Assembly: GCA_964544235.1 (NCBI GenBank)
Contig: CAZIZY010000013.1
Coordinates: 1-49,461 of the forward strand
DNA: 49,461 nt
Origin: an uncultured Nitrosopumilales archaeon
GTDB taxonomy: Archaea > Thermoproteota > Nitrososphaeria > Nitrososphaerales > CAZIZY01
Direction of reading: 5' to 3'
Below the pieces are notes generated by a model. That model had not been told where the DNA came from and did no database searches. It was given only the letters and a program-made list of their open reading frames with translations. Below, in pieces: positions 22,031 to 39,755 of this stretch; positions within the stretch are counted from its first letter, which is position 1; every line of letters starts with the position of its first letter. Position numbers and translations under genes: made by a program.

Positions 22031-25000
22031 TTATTTAACTTCACTTTCTTTATCCTTTAACCATTTTAAAGCATTTCCAAAAGCTTGTGCTGTTTCTAAT
22101 GTGGTCATCACTGGAATTCCAAGTTCAACTGCTTTTCGACGTATTGAATATTCATCTTCAAGAATATGCTTGTATTTCGAAAGTGTTTCAGTTGAAGGTA
22201 TATTTATTATTAGATCAAATTTTCTTTCTACCAAAAAGTCCTGTAAATTAGGTTTCTTTTCAATTTCATCCATCTTATATAATATCTTAATATTATCAAA
22301 TTTATTTTCCTTTAGATATTCCCCAGTATGTTTTGTACTGAATATTATGTATCCTGTTTCCTGAAGTTTTTTAACTATTGGTAAAATTCTTTTTTTATTT
22401 TTTTCGCCTCCAATTGTTATTAAAATATTACCATTTTCTTTTGGTATTTTGTATCCTGCAGATTGAAAAGCTTTGATTAACGCATCATTAAATTCTTCAC
22501 TTATGGCTGCGGCTTCTCCTGTTGATTGCATTTCAACTCCAAGATGAGGATCTGCTCCCTCAATTTGCATAAATGAAAATTGAGGAACTTTAATTCCTAT
22601 CAATTCTTTTTCTTTTTTCATTTGGGTTATTGGTAGTTTATTATTAATCATTGATTCCGCCGCGATATCTATCAAATTAATTCCTTTTACTTTTGAAACG
22701 AAAGGCATTGATCTTGAAGCTCTTAAATTACATTCAATCACTAAAACATTATTATCTTTCACTAAAAATTGAATGTTAAATGGTCCTTTTACTGAAAGAG
22801 ACTTTGCAATTTTTTCCGTATATTCAACTATTTTATCTTTAATTGATTGTTTTATAGTGTAAGGTGGAATTACCATTACTGCATCTCCTGAATGAATTCC
22901 TGCTTTATCTATATGTTCAATTATTGCACCTATGTATACTTCCTTTCCGTTACTTACCGCATCAACTTCAATCTCTAATGCATCTTGAATAAATTTACTA
23001 ATAACTACTGGATATTCTGGACTGATAGTTGTCGCTTTAATTAAAAATTTCTCTAGATCCTTGGATGTCCATATAACTTTCATTGCAGCTCCACTAAGAA
23101 CATACGAAGGTCTAACTAGAATTGGATATCCTACCTTCTTAACAAACATATTTACATCATTCATTGAGGAAAATTGTTCCCATTCAGGTTGTGCAATTCC
23201 AAGACTATCTAATAATTTACTAAATTTTGATCGATTTTCTGCTCCATCAATACTTTTACTATCACTTCCTATAATCTTAATTCCTTTTTCTCCAATTTTT
23301 GGCGCAATATTATTTGGAGTTTGACCACCAACTGAAGTTACTACTCCTTCTGATTTCTCTTTATCATTGATATCTAAAATTCGTTCAAGCTTTATTTCTT
23401 CAAAATATAATTTATCACTCATATCGTAGTCAGTTGATACCGTTTCAGGATTACAATTGATTATGATCACTTCATCAAATTTTCTTTTCTTGAGAGACCA
23501 AACCATATGCATTGTTGACCAATCGAATTCTACAGAGCTACCAATTCTGTACGTTCCTGAACCAAGAACAATAACTTTTTTACTTTCTTTAAATTCAATG
23601 TCGTCTTTTTTATCTCCATAAGTTAAATACAAATAATTAGTTTTAGCGGGCCATTCTGCAGCTAATGTATCAATTTGTTTTATTGCTGGTACAATTCCAT
23701 TTGTTATTCTTGTTTTTCTCACATGATCAAAAGTTGTTCCTGTAATAGATGCTATATTTTCATCTGAGAATCCTAGCTTTTTAGATTGATATAACATTTC
23801 AGCATGTGATTTATCTAAAATTCTTTTCGAGTTACTTCTTAATTCTTTGTCTAATTGAACAATATTGTTAATTTTATTGATAAACCAAGGATCAATAAAT
23901 GTTAATTCTCTTATTCTATCTACTTCCATTCCTAAACTAAGCGCTTTAGCTACATGAAAAATTATTTCGTCATTAGGATGATTCAATAGATCTTCAATGT
24001 TTTGTTCTACTTTTTCATCATCATCTAAATCCATTACATTGTCTTTATTGATATCTGACATTCTTACTGCTTTTTGTAGTGCTTCTTCGAATCTCCTGCC
24101 TACTGCCATTACTTCTCCTACTGATTTCATTTGTGGACCTAATATTCGACTAGATCTATCAAACTTAGTTAGATCCCACCGAGGCATTTTTAGAACTAAA
24201 TAGTCAAGTGAAGGCTCAAAGCAAGAAGTAGTTACTCCCGTAACTTTATTCGTTAACTCTGCAAGTGTATATCCTAAAGTTAATTTCGTTGCTATGTACG
24301 CAATTGGATATCCTGTTGCTTTAGATGCTAGTGCTGATGATCTTGAGAGCCGTGGATTAATTTCTATTACGTAAAATTTTTCAGAATTTGTATCCAGAGC
24401 AAATTGAATATTACATTCTCCTAAGATGTTACAAACTTCAGCTGCTTCAATTGATATTCTACGAAGCATATGGTATTCTCTATTGTTAATCGTTTGTGAT
24501 GGAGCTACAACAATATTATCTCCAGTATGAACTCTCATACTCAAAACATTTTCCATATCACATACAGTAATTGAATTTCCTGAACAATCTCTCATTACTT
24601 CAAATTCTATTTGTTTCCATTGCCCTACATATTTTTCTACTAAAATTTGATTTGCTAAGCTACTTGATAATCCTCTCTGGGCTATTTCGTCAAGTTCATA
24701 TTCATTAGATGCTAATCCTCCTCCTTTACCTCCAAGAGTATAAGCTACTCTGATAATTACTGGATATCCGATTTCTTTTGCAGCTTTTCTAGCTTCTTCA
24801 ACTGAATTTACATCTTTACTTTGAGGAACAGGTATTCCTGCTTTCCTCATTTTTTCCTTAAATAATCCTCTATCTTCCGTGGCTTGAATTCCTTCTATAG
24901 GTGTTCCTAATACTTTGACATTATTTCTTTGTAAAATATTTTTCTCTGATAATTCTACTCCACAATTTAAAGCTGTTTGTCCTCCAAATCCAAGTAAAAT

Positions 25001-25276
25001 ACCATCTGGTTTCTCTTTCTTTATAACTTCTTCAACATATTCTGGTGTTACTGGATAATAATATATCTTATTAGACATACGAAGATCGGTTTGAATTGTA
25101 GCTATGTTTGGATTAACTAATACTGTTTCTATATTTTCTTCTTTGAGAGCTTTAAGACATTGGCTACCGGAGTAATCGAATTAGTGGCTATTTTATTAGC
25201 TTTCACCTGCTTCTCCGATCTTTATTGCCCCACTCCCTAGAACAAGTATTTTCTTCAAATTTTCTCTTTTTATCAA
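22031..25276 (-). CDS. carB: Carbamoyl-phosphate synthase large subunit in two exons (25276-25202 and 25180-22031), 1074 aa after splicing
   Basis: TTG at 25276 follows the SD AAGGAGGTGA and overlaps the carA stop. Exon 1 reads MIKRENLKKILVLGSGAIKIGEAGE. Exon 2 reads FDYSGSQCLKALKEE..NPNIATIQTD and runs in frame into the 1015-aa track ORF. Confidence 0.93.
25181..25201 (-). other. Putative 21-nt BHB mRNA intron in carB
   Basis: AGCTAATAAAATAGCCACTAA; central helix GGTG/CACT, bulges AA^A and AA^T, inner helix GCTA/TAGC. Confidence 0.88.
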
Positions 25277-26427
25277 AGTTTCACCTCCTTAAGAATCATC
25301 GATCGAAATTCATCGAAGATAAATTCCGTATCATATGGTCCTGGTGTAGCTTCTGGATGAAATTGAACAGCTAAACAAGATTTATTTTCATGTTTCATAC
25401 CTTCAATCGTGTTATCATCTGCATTAACAAACCATTTTTTTAATCCTATTCCTTCTATTGATTTCTCATCAACTGAATAACCATGATTTTGACTTGTAAT
25501 ATAACTTCTATTTGAAGGTATTTCGATACATGCTTTGTTCTGACCACGGTGACCATATTTCATTTTATATGTATCTCCTTCAAGTGCTAACGCTATAAGT
25601 TGATGACCTAAACAAATTCCTAATAGCGGAATATTCATTTCTATTATTTCTTTTATTGTTTTTATTGTTGAAGAGCATATTTTAGGATCTCCTGGACCAT
25701 TACTTACAACTATCCCTGCTGGTTTATGTGATATTATGTCTTTAATTGGAGTATCATATCTCACTCTAACGACTTTGAATCCTTTTTTCACTAAATTCCT
25801 TAATATTCCATTTTTTATCCCACAATCAATTACTACTATCGTATTATGATATTGATTTCCAATTGTGTTAAAATTCTTATCAGTTACTTCTTCAACTAAA
25901 TTCATTTGTTCATATGTTTTTGTTTCTTGAAGATTATTTTTTAATTCAGATATGTCTATTGGTTTCTCTGATGTTTCAAGGATACTCATCATCACTCCAT
26001 GTGTTCTAATTTTTTGCGTTAAGAACCTTGTATCCACGTCACATATTCCTGGAATATCTTCTTCTAATAACCATTCATTAAGATTCTTAACAGACGCCCA
26101 ATGACTAGGTTTTTCACAAAGTTCATGAATTATCGTCCCTCTAACTTGAATTTTATTTGATTCGAAATACTTCGGAAATCCATATTCATCTTTATTCTCA
26201 TATTTTGGAACTCCATAATTTCCTATCAACGGATAAGTAAAACAAAGAATTTGTCCACCATATGAAGGATCGGTTAATGATTCTGTATAACCTACCATTC
26301 CAGTGTTAAATACGGCTTCTCCAGTTACACGTTTTGGTGCGCCAAATCCTTTACCTTTAATTATTGTCCCATCACTGAGAAGCAAAACTGCTTCAAGAAG
26401 TTTTGATTCTTTTGTAATCGATGGCAG
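25273..26427 (-). CDS. carA: Carbamoyl-phosphate synthase small subunit
   Basis: GEAVFNTGMVGY, SNGPGDP, GICLGHQ, QFHPE. Start uncertain: CTG 26427 proposed, track uses TTG 26385. Confidence 0.93.
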   Translation of the reverse strand: MPSITKESKLLEAVLLLSDGTIIKGKGFGAPKRVTGEAVFNTGMVGYTESLTDPSYGGQILCFTYPLIGNYGVPKYENKDEYGFPKYFESNKIQVRGTIIHELCEKPSHWASVKNLNEWLLEEDIPGICDVDTRFLTQKIRTHGVMMSILETSEKPIDISELKNNLQETKTYEQMNLVEEVTDKNFNTIGNQYHNTIVVIDCGIKNGILRNLVKKGFKVVRVRYDTPIKDIISHKPAGIVVSNGPGDPKICSSTIKTIKEIIEMNIPLLGICLGHQLIALALEGDTYKMKYGHRGQNKACIEIPSNRSYITSQNHGYSVDEKSIEGIGLKKWFVNADDNTIEGMKHENKSCLAVQFHPEATPGPYDTEFIFDEFRSMILKEVKL

Positions 26428-30988: not shown

Positions 30989-31100
30989 GGATCCGTAGCC
31001 CAGCTAGGATTAGGGCGTCGAAATTACTTTAGTGCGTATGCCTCCGATTCAACTTTGAGTTGAAAGCCGGAAGTCCGGGGTTCAAATCCCCGCGGATCCG
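30989..31100 (+). tRNA. tRNA-Arg(CCG) with two introns (29/30 19 nt, 31021-31039; 37/38 17 nt, 31048-31064)
   Basis: Acceptor stem GGATCCG/CGGATCC, A20 and G73 Arg determinants. Spliced anticodon arm TCGGC-CTCCGAA-GCCGG; mature length 76 nt. Confidence 0.8.
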
Positions 31101-39654: not shown

Positions 39655-39755
39655 GCGGGGGTCGCCAAGCTTGGTCAACGGCGCGAGGCTTAGGAGCTTC
39701 ATGTTAAGATACCTCGTCCTTTAGTGGTTCGTGGGTTCAAATCCCACCCCCCGCA
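39655..39755 (+). tRNA. tRNA-Leu(TAG) with canonical 16-nt intron (39695-39710)
   Basis: Acceptor stem GCGGGGG/CCCCCGC, long variable arm, BHB helix CTTA/TAAG. Confidence 0.95.

What the first reader, a model, noticed from the sequence alone, without database searches (positions are those of the whole stretch)
25181..25201. Candidate spliced bulge-helix-bulge intron in the carB mRNA
Seen in sequence: the minus strand reads GCA GGT GAA [AGC TAA TAA AAT AGC CAC TAA] TTC GAT TAC TCC GGT. A 21-nt insert with three in-frame stops splits the conserved CarB motif GE-FDYSG. The RNA folds as a BHB: central 4-bp helix GGUG/CACU, 3-nt bulges AAA and AAU, inner helix GCUA/UAGC with a 6-nt loop, and an imperfect exon-exon stem whose distal part is AUCGGAG/CUCCGGU. 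Established knowledge: the archaeal tRNA splicing endonuclease cuts after the second nucleotide of each bulge. Applying that rule removes exactly these 21 nt and joins GAA to TTC, giving a full-length 1074-aa CarB. The splice sites from structure and from protein homology agree independently, which a random insertion or sequencing error is unlikely to produce. The established precedent for an archaeal mRNA intron is cbf5. I know of no description for carB but cannot search the literature. Gene callers would report an N-truncated CarB, as the ORF track does.
Basis: partly seen in the sequence, partly recalled or inferred. Interest (0 to 1): 0.95.

Follow-up and report, generated by a model that had tools for sequence, protein, structure and literature searches.

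The report
Spliced mini-intron in archaeal carB mRNA
A 21-base intron of the kind normally cut out of archaeal tRNAs interrupts the gene for an essential enzyme (carbamoyl-phosphate synthase) in a small marine thaumarchaeon and in about half of its order, and a metatranscriptome contig shows it removed exactly, adding a gene to the one known case, cbf5.

Summary
Window 25181-25201 (minus strand) is a 21-nt insert with three in-frame TAA stops between the GEAGE and FDYSG codons of the genome's only carB.

- In a scan of 401 genomes of the same order, 225 carry a 12-45 nt insert at this codon boundary and 122 have the boundary uninterrupted; a reversed-pattern control gave 0.
- Among 85 distinct inserts (17-32 nt), 43 are not multiples of three. 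All fit the bulge-helix-bulge rule, and the helices covary.
- Synonymous exon positions are constrained only where the intron is present: the exon-exon helix is complete in 80 of 82 intron-bearing genes and 7 of 61 intron-less ones.
- One metatranscriptome contig lacks exactly these 21 nt, while a DNA contig keeps them.
- The genome encodes two EndA paralogues, which fits an (alpha-beta)2 enzyme, and RtcB.

Ten literature searches found only cbf5 and one 5'-UTR case as archaeal mRNA introns.

A second such intron sits in this genome's aEF-2 gene.

Caveats: the RNA evidence is one contig, the 3' bulge is relaxed, and enzyme involvement is inferred.

The parts
25202..25276 (-). carB exon 1: 25 codons, from the TTG start to the GAA of GEAGE
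   Evidence: Translation. The TTG overlaps the carA stop as TTGA. Exon 2 begins at position 25 of the TIGR01369 profile, so about 24 profile positions are missing from it, and exon 1 supplies 25 residues. The choice of start codon is inference.
25181..25201 (-). 21-nt bulge-helix-bulge intron (three in-frame TAA)
   Evidence: Searches give the sequence; an RNA contig of run X17 has 21 letters left out at 25181, and the DNA contig of X10 keeps them. Searches show homologous inserts in relatives. The boundary can slide by up to 2 nt without changing the product, because AA stands on both sides.
22031..25180 (-). carB exon 2: 1049 codons plus stop
   Evidence: TIGR01369, 1382.8 bits, profile positions 25-1051 of 1052; the spliced product is 1074 aa.
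25204..25207 (-). Central helix H, 5' strand (GGUG, in exon 1)
   Evidence: Pairs with 25183-25186. Across 77 distinct relatives the four H pairs form in 68, 77, 77 and 77 sequences. The third pair is C-G in 74, U-A in 2 (the window is one of them) and U-G in 1.
25183..25186 (-). Central helix H, 3' strand (CACU, in the intron)
25187..25200 (-). Inner stem-loop h' (GCUA, loop AUAAAA, UAGC)
   Evidence: In 77 distinct sequences, pairs 2-4 form in 77, 77 and 75, with C-G/U-A and G-C/A-U exchanges.
25213..25219 (-). Distal exon-exon helix h, 5' strand (AUCGGAG, codons Ile-Gly-Glu)
   Evidence: pairs it with 25166-25172; six of six pairs form in 80 of 82 intron-bearing genes and in 7 of 61 intron-less ones.
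25166..25172 (-). Distal exon-exon helix h, 3' strand (CUCCGGU, codons Tyr-Ser-Gly)
25273..26385 (-). carA (small subunit), directly upstream; its stop overlaps the carB start
   Evidence: TIGR01368, 449 bits. The RNA contig of X17 runs from 25043 to 25530 across the carA/carB boundary.

Best explanation
The 21 nt at 25181-25201 are an archaeal bulge-helix-bulge (BHB) intron in the carA-carB messenger.

Proposed mechanism:
1. In the transcript, exon 1 (GGUG) pairs with the 3' part of the intron (CACU) to form the 4-bp central helix.
2. The intron's own stem-loop (GCUA/UAGC) closes the 5' bulge (AAA).
3. A 7-bp exon-exon helix (AUCGGAG/CUCCGGU) holds the 3' exon in place, so the 3' splice site (AA|U) lies in a relaxed bulge.
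4. The splicing endonuclease cuts after the second nucleotide of each bulge. This genome has a catalytic and a non-catalytic paralogue, which fits the broad-specificity (alpha-beta)2 type.
5. RtcB joins the exons, and the GE|FD junction yields a 1074-aa CarB.

Without splicing, translation stops two codons into the intron. The remaining 1015-aa ORF lacks the N-terminal glycine-rich motif.

The intron sits at the same site in nine family-level groups of the order. I read this as old, with several precise losses.

Shown: the insert, its conservation, the covariation, the constraint on exon synonymous sites, one RNA contig without the 21 nt, and the presence of the enzymes.
Inferred: which enzymes act, the order of events, and the age of the intron.
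For: 1. Same site, variable length. In one search, 14 of 29 relatives' carB loci carry an insert exactly between GAR (E) and TTY (F). Of 11 named records, 6 carry one, among them records titled Cenarchaeum sp., Nitrosopumilus sp., Nitrosopumilaceae archaeon and Thaumarchaeota archaeon.

2. Order-wide scan. 225 of 401 genomes match the boundary with a 12-45 nt insert (the reversed-pattern control gave 0 in every row). 122 of 401 have it uninterrupted, and 54 match neither pattern.

3. Fit to the BHB rule. Among 85 distinct inserts of 17-32 nt, 43 are not multiples of three. All 85 fit the rule anchored on the homology-defined boundaries: H forms 4 of 4 pairs in 74 and 3 of 4 in 11, and h' has 3-8 bp.

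4. Covariation. In A1 (77 distinct sequences), 94.5% of cells pair, against 24.8-52.1% when partners are slid. The covariation score is 0.302 against 0.018-0.122 for slid partners, and 0 of 500 shuffles reach it. Four of five h' pairs change on both sides. The window's own H helix carries a U-A where 74 others have C-G.

5. Exon synonymous sites. Intron-bearing versus intron-less genes: Ile ATC 73 of 82 vs 18 of 61; Gly GGA 77 of 82 vs 11 of 61; Gly GGC 79 of 82 vs 18 of 61; Tyr TAC 81 of 82 vs 30 of 61. The distal helix is complete in 80 of 82 vs 7 of 61. Within families: f9 28 of 28 vs 0 of 18; f12 22 of 22 vs 5 of 15; f15 23 of 23 vs 0 of 6.

6. RNA. Metatranscriptome run X17 holds a 469-nt contig (depth 11.2) on 25043-25530 with exactly 21 letters left out at 25181. 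The DNA contig of X10 (7910 nt) keeps them, 0 of depth 8.58 without them.

7. Machinery. Two PF01974 genes are present (98.9 and 79.4 bits). One is closest to solved chains 2cv8_A, 3p1z_B and 2zyz_B and has GIDHAPY. The other has an Ala where the M. jannaschii enzyme has its His in the printed alignment. RtcB scores 570.8 bits. A review passage assigns alpha2beta2 enzymes to Thaumarchaeota. [quoted passage not shown]

8. The gene is in use. It is the only carB in the genome. dN/dS is 0.049 for the intron-bearing pair L006/L010, against 0.073 for the intron-less pair L026/L028.

9. Specificity. A genome-wide scan for this motif joining two abutting ORFs left 3 strict candidates in 1.05 Mb searched on both strands: carB, aEF-2, and one false positive of two overlapping genes.
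Against: - The single-sequence fold is not significant (z -1.73, with 10 of 200 shuffles as good).
- The 3' splice site is not in a closed 3-nt bulge. Seven unpaired nucleotides separate it from the exon-exon helix, so the motif is the relaxed form. No cleavage of such a substrate by a thaumarchaeal enzyme was seen here.
- The outermost H pair is G.A in 9 of 77 sequences.
- The two intron-bearing genes of family f13 have only 3 of 6 distal pairs, so the distal helix is not universal.
- The RNA evidence is one contig in one run. It differs from the window at 5 other places. The table that would show whether the joined form also exists as DNA was not given (table 5b), so an intron-less DNA allele in that sample is not excluded.
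- The contigs of RNA runs X15 and X16 do not reach the site.
- Covariation counts come from related sequences, and the structure was derived from them, so the shuffle figures are not probabilities.
- The roles of EndA and RtcB are inferred from their presence.
Confidence: 0.9

Rival explanations
1. The RNA is processed as described, but by enzymes other than EndA and RtcB, for example another endonuclease that recognises the hairpin, or another ligase.
For: No enzyme assay was possible. The 3' site departs from the canonical closed bulge.
Against: The 4-bp helix, the 3-nt 5' bulge and the cut after the second bulge nucleotide are the signature of the splicing endonuclease, and they hold in 85 of 85 distinct inserts. 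The genome encodes both EndA paralogues and RtcB. It also has intron-bearing tRNA genes.
Confidence: 0.04
2. Programmed translational bypassing: ribosomes hop over the 21 nt, as over the 50-nt gap of phage T4 gene 60 (recalled example), and the RNA is never spliced.
For: A stop codon lies two codons after the putative take-off site, and a hairpin lies in the gap.
Against: An RNA contig lacks the 21 nt. No matching take-off and landing codons are present: GAA precedes the gap, and no GAA or GAG precedes TTC. In the window and in the 85 distinct inserts the gap ends in A followed by A, G or T. Covariation links the exon to the 3' end of the gap in the way a BHB needs, which bypassing does not predict.
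Confidence: 0.02
3. carB is a pseudogene, or is expressed as an N-truncated protein. The insert is an inactivating insertion, and the RNA contig comes from an intron-less strain or from contaminating DNA.
For: Three in-frame stops. The RNA evidence is a single contig with 5 other differences. Presence and absence of the insert vary within genera.
Against: - 225 of 401 genomes keep an insert at the same boundary with paired helices, yet the other 1049 codons stay open.
- dN/dS is 0.049 in an intron-bearing pair.
- Exon synonymous sites are constrained only when the insert is present, which decay does not predict.
- It is the only carB in a 92.5%-complete genome.
- Both near-identical metagenome records (2 of 2) carry the insert.
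Confidence: 0.02

Closest known systems
cbf5 pre-mRNA intron of Crenarchaeota (Watanabe 2002; Yoshinari 2006; Yokobori 2009, PMC2738675: abstract, passages and reference list read)
   Same: A short BHB-type intron inside a protein-coding gene. Splicing restores a conserved protein. The hosts have hetero-oligomeric splicing endonucleases. The distribution is patchy and read as one gain with lineage-specific losses.
   Different: The gene differs (carB, and aEF-2 in passing). The lineage differs: mesophilic marine and soil Thaumarchaeota (Nitrososphaerales), where a table legend of the 2009 paper lists Cenarchaeales and Nitrosopumilales among the taxa surveyed; that their cbf5 lacks the intron is recalled, not seen in the passages read. 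The intron lies only 25 codons into the gene. A distal exon-exon helix is maintained by synonymous-site selection.
Non-canonical tRNA introns and rRNA processing stems cut by archaeal EndA (review PMC4090602, passage; PMC5829648, abstract in the listing)
   Same: The same motif logic (4-bp helix, 3-nt bulges, cut after the second bulge nucleotide) and the same presumed enzymes. Relaxed motifs are tolerated by (alpha-beta)2 enzymes.
   Different: The substrate is an mRNA that ribosomes can enter, and the exon part of the motif must also encode protein.
BHB intron in the 5' UTR of HVO_1309 in Haloferax volcanii (Schwarz 2020, PMC7714728, passage)
   Same: An EndA substrate in an mRNA. That paper states that cbf5 was until then the only other BHB intron in an archaeal mRNA.
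   Different: That intron lies in an untranslated region. This one interrupts the reading frame.
IRE1-dependent unconventional splicing of HAC1/XBP1 mRNA (named in a PMC13149111 passage; details recalled)
   Same: It works alike: a very short intron is cut from an mRNA by a protein endonuclease at stem-loop sites and joined by a tRNA ligase, and this changes the protein made.
   Different: The endonuclease is unrelated and the setting is eukaryotic stress signalling. The carB intron is not a member of this system.

Membership tests
Archaeal BHB intron (substrate of the splicing endonuclease) | 4-bp central helix flanked by two 3-nt bulges on opposite strands | tested here: met
   Window: GGUG/CACU with AAA and AAU. 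In 77 distinct relatives the H pairs form in 68, 77, 77 and 77 sequences. Bulge 1 is AAA or AGA in 74 of 77, and bulge 2 is AAU, AGU or AUU in 77 of 77.
Archaeal BHB intron (substrate of the splicing endonuclease) | Both bulges closed by flanking helices (strict hBHBh' form) | tested here: not met
   h' closes the 5' bulge. On the exon side the helix is not adjacent: 3 nt (GCA) and 7 nt (AAUUCGA) stay unpaired before the distal stem. This is the relaxed form, which the literature ascribes to (alpha-beta)2 and epsilon2 enzymes (listing).
Archaeal BHB intron (substrate of the splicing endonuclease) | A cut after the second nucleotide of each bulge gives a functional product | tested here: met
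   The rule restores GE|FD in 85 of 85 distinct inserts, including the 43 whose length is not a multiple of three. In the window the product is 1074 aa without stops.
Archaeal BHB intron (substrate of the splicing endonuclease) | Helices supported by compensatory change | tested here: met
   116 cells change on both sides, against 6-33 when partners are slid. Four of five h' pairs show double changes. H pair 3 is C-G in 74, U-A in 2 and U-G in 1.
Archaeal BHB intron (substrate of the splicing endonuclease) | The host encodes a splicing endonuclease and an RNA ligase | tested here: met
   Two PF01974 genes and one PF01139 gene lie above the curated cut-offs. TIGR00324 matches both paralogues.
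Archaeal BHB intron (substrate of the splicing endonuclease) | The spliced RNA exists | tested here: met
   One RNA contig (X17, 469 nt, depth 11.2) lacks exactly 21 nt at 25181, and the DNA contig of X10 keeps them. This is one contig in one run. An intron-less DNA allele is not excluded.
Archaeal BHB intron (substrate of the splicing endonuclease) | Cleavage by EndA leaves a 2',3'-cyclic phosphate and a 5'-OH; the intron is released (often as a circle) | not testable with these tools
   This needs an enzyme assay or circular-RNA sequencing.
Carbamoyl-phosphate synthase large subunit (CarB) | Full-length match to the equivalog model | tested here: met
   Exon 2 alone scores 1382.8 bits on TIGR01369 (cut-off 1027) over profile positions 25-1051 of 1052. 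Exon 1 supplies the missing N-terminus.

The most novel reading that the evidence does not exclude
The carB intron is one visible member of an undescribed set of endonuclease-spliced mini-introns in essential messengers (carB, and aEF-2 at two sites) that has persisted across much of the Nitrososphaerales, the order that includes the ammonia-oxidising archaea. In these organisms the making of CarB and of the translocation factor would therefore depend on the tRNA-splicing enzymes. The introns, which lie 25 and 22 codons from the start, could act as a checkpoint tying expression of these genes to RNA-processing capacity.
Probability: 0.5. Interest if true: 0.92.

Novelty: new member of a known kind. 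Interest (0 to 1): 0.85.

Why it matters
By the papers I could read, archaeal introns in protein-coding genes are a one-gene curiosity. Schwarz 2020 says cbf5 was the only mRNA case besides their own 5'-UTR intron. A 2025 structural paper cites only the cbf5 work for mRNA.

Here the same mechanism interrupts carB in 225 of 401 sampled genomes of an ecologically dominant order, and aEF-2 in others. Three consequences follow.

1. Annotation. Gene callers will report carB (and aEF-2) as truncated, frameshifted or pseudogenes. This can distort metabolic reconstructions and completeness estimates.

2. Coding constraint. It is a clear case of an RNA-structure constraint written into synonymous codon positions of the flanking exons.

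3. Testability. It gives a way to ask how splicing competes with translation in cells without a nucleus, since unspliced RNA ends translation after 27 codons. It also allows study of how such introns are gained and precisely lost.

Tried and rejected
- Folding energy as evidence. It is not significant on the single sequence, so I did not use it as support.
- ARAGORN found no tRNA in the window, although Rfam finds two intron-bearing ones. ARAGORN's blank says nothing here.
- RNA runs X15 and X16. Their contigs end at 25250 and 25157 and do not reach the intron, so no conclusion follows from them.
- Scan outside the order. In 301 genomes of the phylum there were 3 matches among the 257 outside the order, all in family f25. 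On reading, these are an uninterrupted gene (GSGGIVIAQAAEFDY) hit in another frame. So I count 0 true hits of 257. The pattern requires the EAGE wording, which other lineages lack, so this does not show absence.
- Genome-wide motif scan of G000. The loose filter gave 667 candidates, mostly adjacent genes. The strict filter gave 3. The candidate on contig C44 is two overlapping genes and was rejected. An intermediate filter gave 9 with no further convincing case, and it missed aEF-2 because of its loop limit. The scan is therefore not exhaustive.
- CarB tree. Only the quick tree finished; 9 of 26 inner branches are open and one branch is long. I use it only to say that the intron state needs several changes: at least 6, of which 4 are forced by well-supported branches.
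- dN/dS. Only 3 intron-bearing comparisons and 1 intron-less comparison had a computable dS, and two of those three had dS above 2. The other 5 pairs were saturated.
- Rejected readings. An intein is excluded by the stops and the 21-nt length. A group I or II intron is excluded by size. Frameshifting is excluded because the insert is in frame with three stops.
- Rows dropped before the counts. L001, L002, L045, L044, L050, L117, L118, L127 and L133 were dropped as duplicates of genomes already held, or as not carB. All loci without a family label were also dropped, including the named loci L033-L043.
- Literature. All ten searches found no description of a carB or aEF-2 BHB intron. The library lacks most subscription journals, and supplements were closed. 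A supplementary table of a thaumarchaeal genome or transcriptome paper could mention it.

Full report
WHAT IS THERE

On the minus strand the window reads GCA GGT GAA, then AGC TAA TAA AAT AGC CAC TAA (25201 down to 25181), then TTC GAT TAC TCC GGT. From the TTG at 25276 the frame gives 25 residues ending in GEAGE, then S**NSH*, then FDYSGSQ and 1049 open codons to 22031. A mechanical ORF list shows only a 1015-aa ORF starting at the ATG of 25078. Exon 2 alone matches the CarB equivalog TIGR01369 (1382.8 bits) from profile position 25 to 1051 of 1052, so about 24 positions are missing, and the upstream 25 codons supply them. Joining 25202 to 25180 in a script gives 1074 aa without stops. That product aligns in one HSP with each of five intron-less homologues. 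carA lies directly upstream (25273-26385; TIGR01368, 449 bits), and its stop overlaps the carB TTG.

THE ORGANISM

The window is contig 13 of a 1.05-Mb genome in 83 contigs, 92.5% complete, with a single carB. The closest named records are titled Nitrososphaerales, Nitrosopumilales, Nitrosopumilaceae, Cenarchaeum, Nitrosopumilus or Thaumarchaeota. Runs that hold the stretch are marine plankton, marine or seawater metagenomes. The genome is the only member of its family among those held.

THE FOLD

RNAfold gives GGUG/CACU, a 3-nt bulge AAA, and GCUA/UAGC around a 6-nt loop. A distal exon-exon stem is reached across an internal loop of 3 and 7 nt. The 5' splice site therefore sits in a proper bulge between two helices, and the 3' site sits in a relaxed one. 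The energy is unremarkable (z -1.73; 10 of 200 shuffles fold as well). The single sequence proves nothing by itself.

COMPARATIVE EVIDENCE

Among 29 relatives' carB loci, 14 carry an insert at exactly this codon boundary. Among 11 named records, 6 do.

A pattern scan of 401 genomes of the order found the boundary with a 12-45 nt insert in 225, and the reversed-pattern control found 0. The boundary is uninterrupted in 122, and 54 match neither pattern. These tallies include two unpublished genomes, G259 and G270; without them the first figure is 223 of 399.

By family, inserts were found in:
- f3: 9 of 9
- f9: 40 of 97
- f12: 71 of 112
- f13: 2 of 4
- f15: 99 of 112
- f2, f7 and f10: 1 of 1 each
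- the window's own family, f1

No inserts were found in the genomes searched of f4, f5, f6, f8, f11, f14 and f16-f20.

In 85 distinct inserts the length runs from 17 to 32 nt, and 43 are not multiples of three. Untouched, those would shift the frame. I anchored the BHB rule on the boundaries given by protein homology. Every one of the 85 has the central helix (4 of 4 pairs in 74, 3 of 4 in 11) and an inner stem of 3-8 bp.

On 77 distinct sequences, inner-stem pairs 2 to 4 form in 77, 77 and 75. They show C-G/U-A and G-C/A-U exchanges. The window's own central helix has U-A where 74 others have C-G. This is a compensatory change between the wobble base of a glycine codon in the exon and a base in the intron.

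The formal count on a MAFFT alignment (A1) gives 94.5% paired cells, against 24.8-52.1% with slid partners. The covariation score is 0.302 against at most 0.122, and 0 of 500 shuffles reach it. These sequences are related and the structure was read from them, so the figures describe the data and do not give probabilities.

EXON CONSTRAINT

If the exons are part of the substrate, their synonymous sites should be constrained only where the intron is present. They are (82 intron-bearing and 61 intron-less genes, duplicates and unlabelled loci dropped):

| Codon | Intron-bearing | Intron-less |
|---|---|---|
| Ile ATC | 73 of 82 | 18 of 61 |
| Gly GGA | 77 of 82 | 11 of 61 |
| Gly GGC (next to the splice site) | 79 of 82 | 18 of 61 |
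| Tyr TAC | 81 of 82 | 30 of 61 |
| Six distal pairs all formed | 80 of 82 | 7 of 61 |

The contrast holds inside single families: f9, 28 of 28 against 0 of 18; f12, 22 of 22 against 5 of 15; f15, 23 of 23 against 0 of 6. The exception is f13, whose two intron-bearing genes form only 3 of 6 distal pairs. The window keeps ATC, GGA, TAC and TCC although its locus is 31% G+C.

RNA

Of the runs found, I laid three RNA runs and one DNA run from a study other than the likely source. Metatranscriptome X17 holds one contig of 469 nt (depth 11.2) on 25043-25530, minus strand, with exactly 21 letters left out at 25181. The DNA contig of X10 (7910 nt) covers 24500-26100 and keeps them. The RNA contig also crosses the carA/carB boundary.

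Its weaknesses are these:
- It is one contig in one run.
- It differs from the window at five other positions, two of them shared with the X10 DNA.
- The tool did not report whether the joined form also occurs in DNA runs.

Against an intron-less allele: the two near-identical metagenome records that reach the site both carry the identical intron.

MACHINERY

The genome has two genes with the endonuclease catalytic-domain fold.
- One (182 aa) is closest to solved chains 2cv8_A, 3p1z_B and 2zyz_B and has the GIDHAPY stretch.
- The other (187 aa) aligns best with the M. jannaschii enzyme but has Ala at the place of that enzyme's His in the printed alignment. It also matches the non-catalytic NEQ261 chain.

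I read this as an (alpha-beta)2 enzyme. This is the type a review assigns to Thaumarchaeota (passage). An abstract seen in a listing says that this type, like epsilon2, can cut non-canonical introns. RtcB is present. Two tRNA genes in the window itself carry extra nucleotides in the anticodon arm, 16 and 36.

RIVALS

- Pseudogene. This does not fit the conservation, the intact 1049 codons, dN/dS of 0.049 in an intron-bearing pair, or the exon constraint.
- Translational bypassing. It lacks matching take-off and landing codons, it does not predict exon-intron covariation, and the RNA contig contradicts it.
- Another enzyme. This cannot be excluded without an assay, but the geometry is that of EndA substrates.

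HISTORY

On a quick CarB tree of 29 rows the intron state needs at least 6 changes, 4 of them forced by well-supported branches. Since the site is identical and the intron ends are alike, I infer one old gain and several precise losses, as proposed for cbf5 (abstract). This is inference.

KNOWN OR NEW

Ten full-text searches found no carB or aEF-2 intron. A passage in Schwarz 2020 says cbf5 was the only BHB intron reported in an archaeal mRNA besides their own 5'-UTR case. A 2025 paper on these enzymes cites only the cbf5 papers for mRNA. Subscription journals and supplements were out of reach. I therefore file this as a new member of a known kind, with perhaps a one-in-five chance that it has been noted somewhere.

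IN PASSING

The same motif scan of the whole genome recovered carB and one more strong case. It is a 31-nt insert in aEF-2 (G000 contig 16, 31227-31257, minus strand), after codon 22, with central helix UUCG/CGAA. Exon 2 starts at position 23 of 720 of TIGR00490.

Across 30 loci, G000's own (L179) included:
- 16 have a 30-42 nt insert at that R|N site, in two registers with different but complementary central helices.
- 4 have a 28-29 nt insert inside the GTP-binding motif, between AHVDHGK and TT.
- 1 has an intein-like in-frame insert at that same place.
- 9 have nothing.

All 20 short inserts fit the BHB rule.

Noticed in passing
G000 contig C16, 31227-31257, minus strand (L178 2328-2358): A second mRNA intron candidate in the same genome: a 31-nt BHB insert after codon 22 of aEF-2, just before the G1 motif. 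The central helix is UUCG/CGAA. Exon 2 matches TIGR00490 from position 23 of 720.
   Followed up: yes
L179-L208 (aEF-2 loci: G000's own and 29 relatives'): 16 of the 30 loci, G000's own included, have a 30-42 nt BHB insert at the same R|N site, in two registers (UUCG/CGAA and CAGG/CCUG). 4 of 30 (L200-L203) have a 28-29 nt BHB insert between AHVDHGK and TT. L204 has an intein-like in-frame insert at that place (open frame 1355 aa, ending ...VHN before TT). 9 have none.
   Followed up: partly
window 30989-31100 (+) and 39655-39755 (+): Rfam finds two tRNA genes carrying 36 and 16 extra nucleotides in the anticodon arm, so both bear introns. ARAGORN found neither.
   Followed up: partly
window 25273-25276: The carA stop and the carB TTG start overlap as TTGA, with GGAGGTG five bases upstream of the TTG. 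The RNA contig of X17 bridges the two genes.
   Followed up: partly
L028 and L031 (carB of G010 and G036, family f11): Each carB match contains one in-frame TGA. I did not examine whether this is an error, a recoding event or another interruption.
   Followed up: no
G034:C9:14077-17355 and G023:C15:2196-5384 (family f8): carB matches in two pieces within one open frame of 1127-1132 aa. This suggests an extra in-frame segment of some tens of residues between the two halves of CarB.
   Followed up: no
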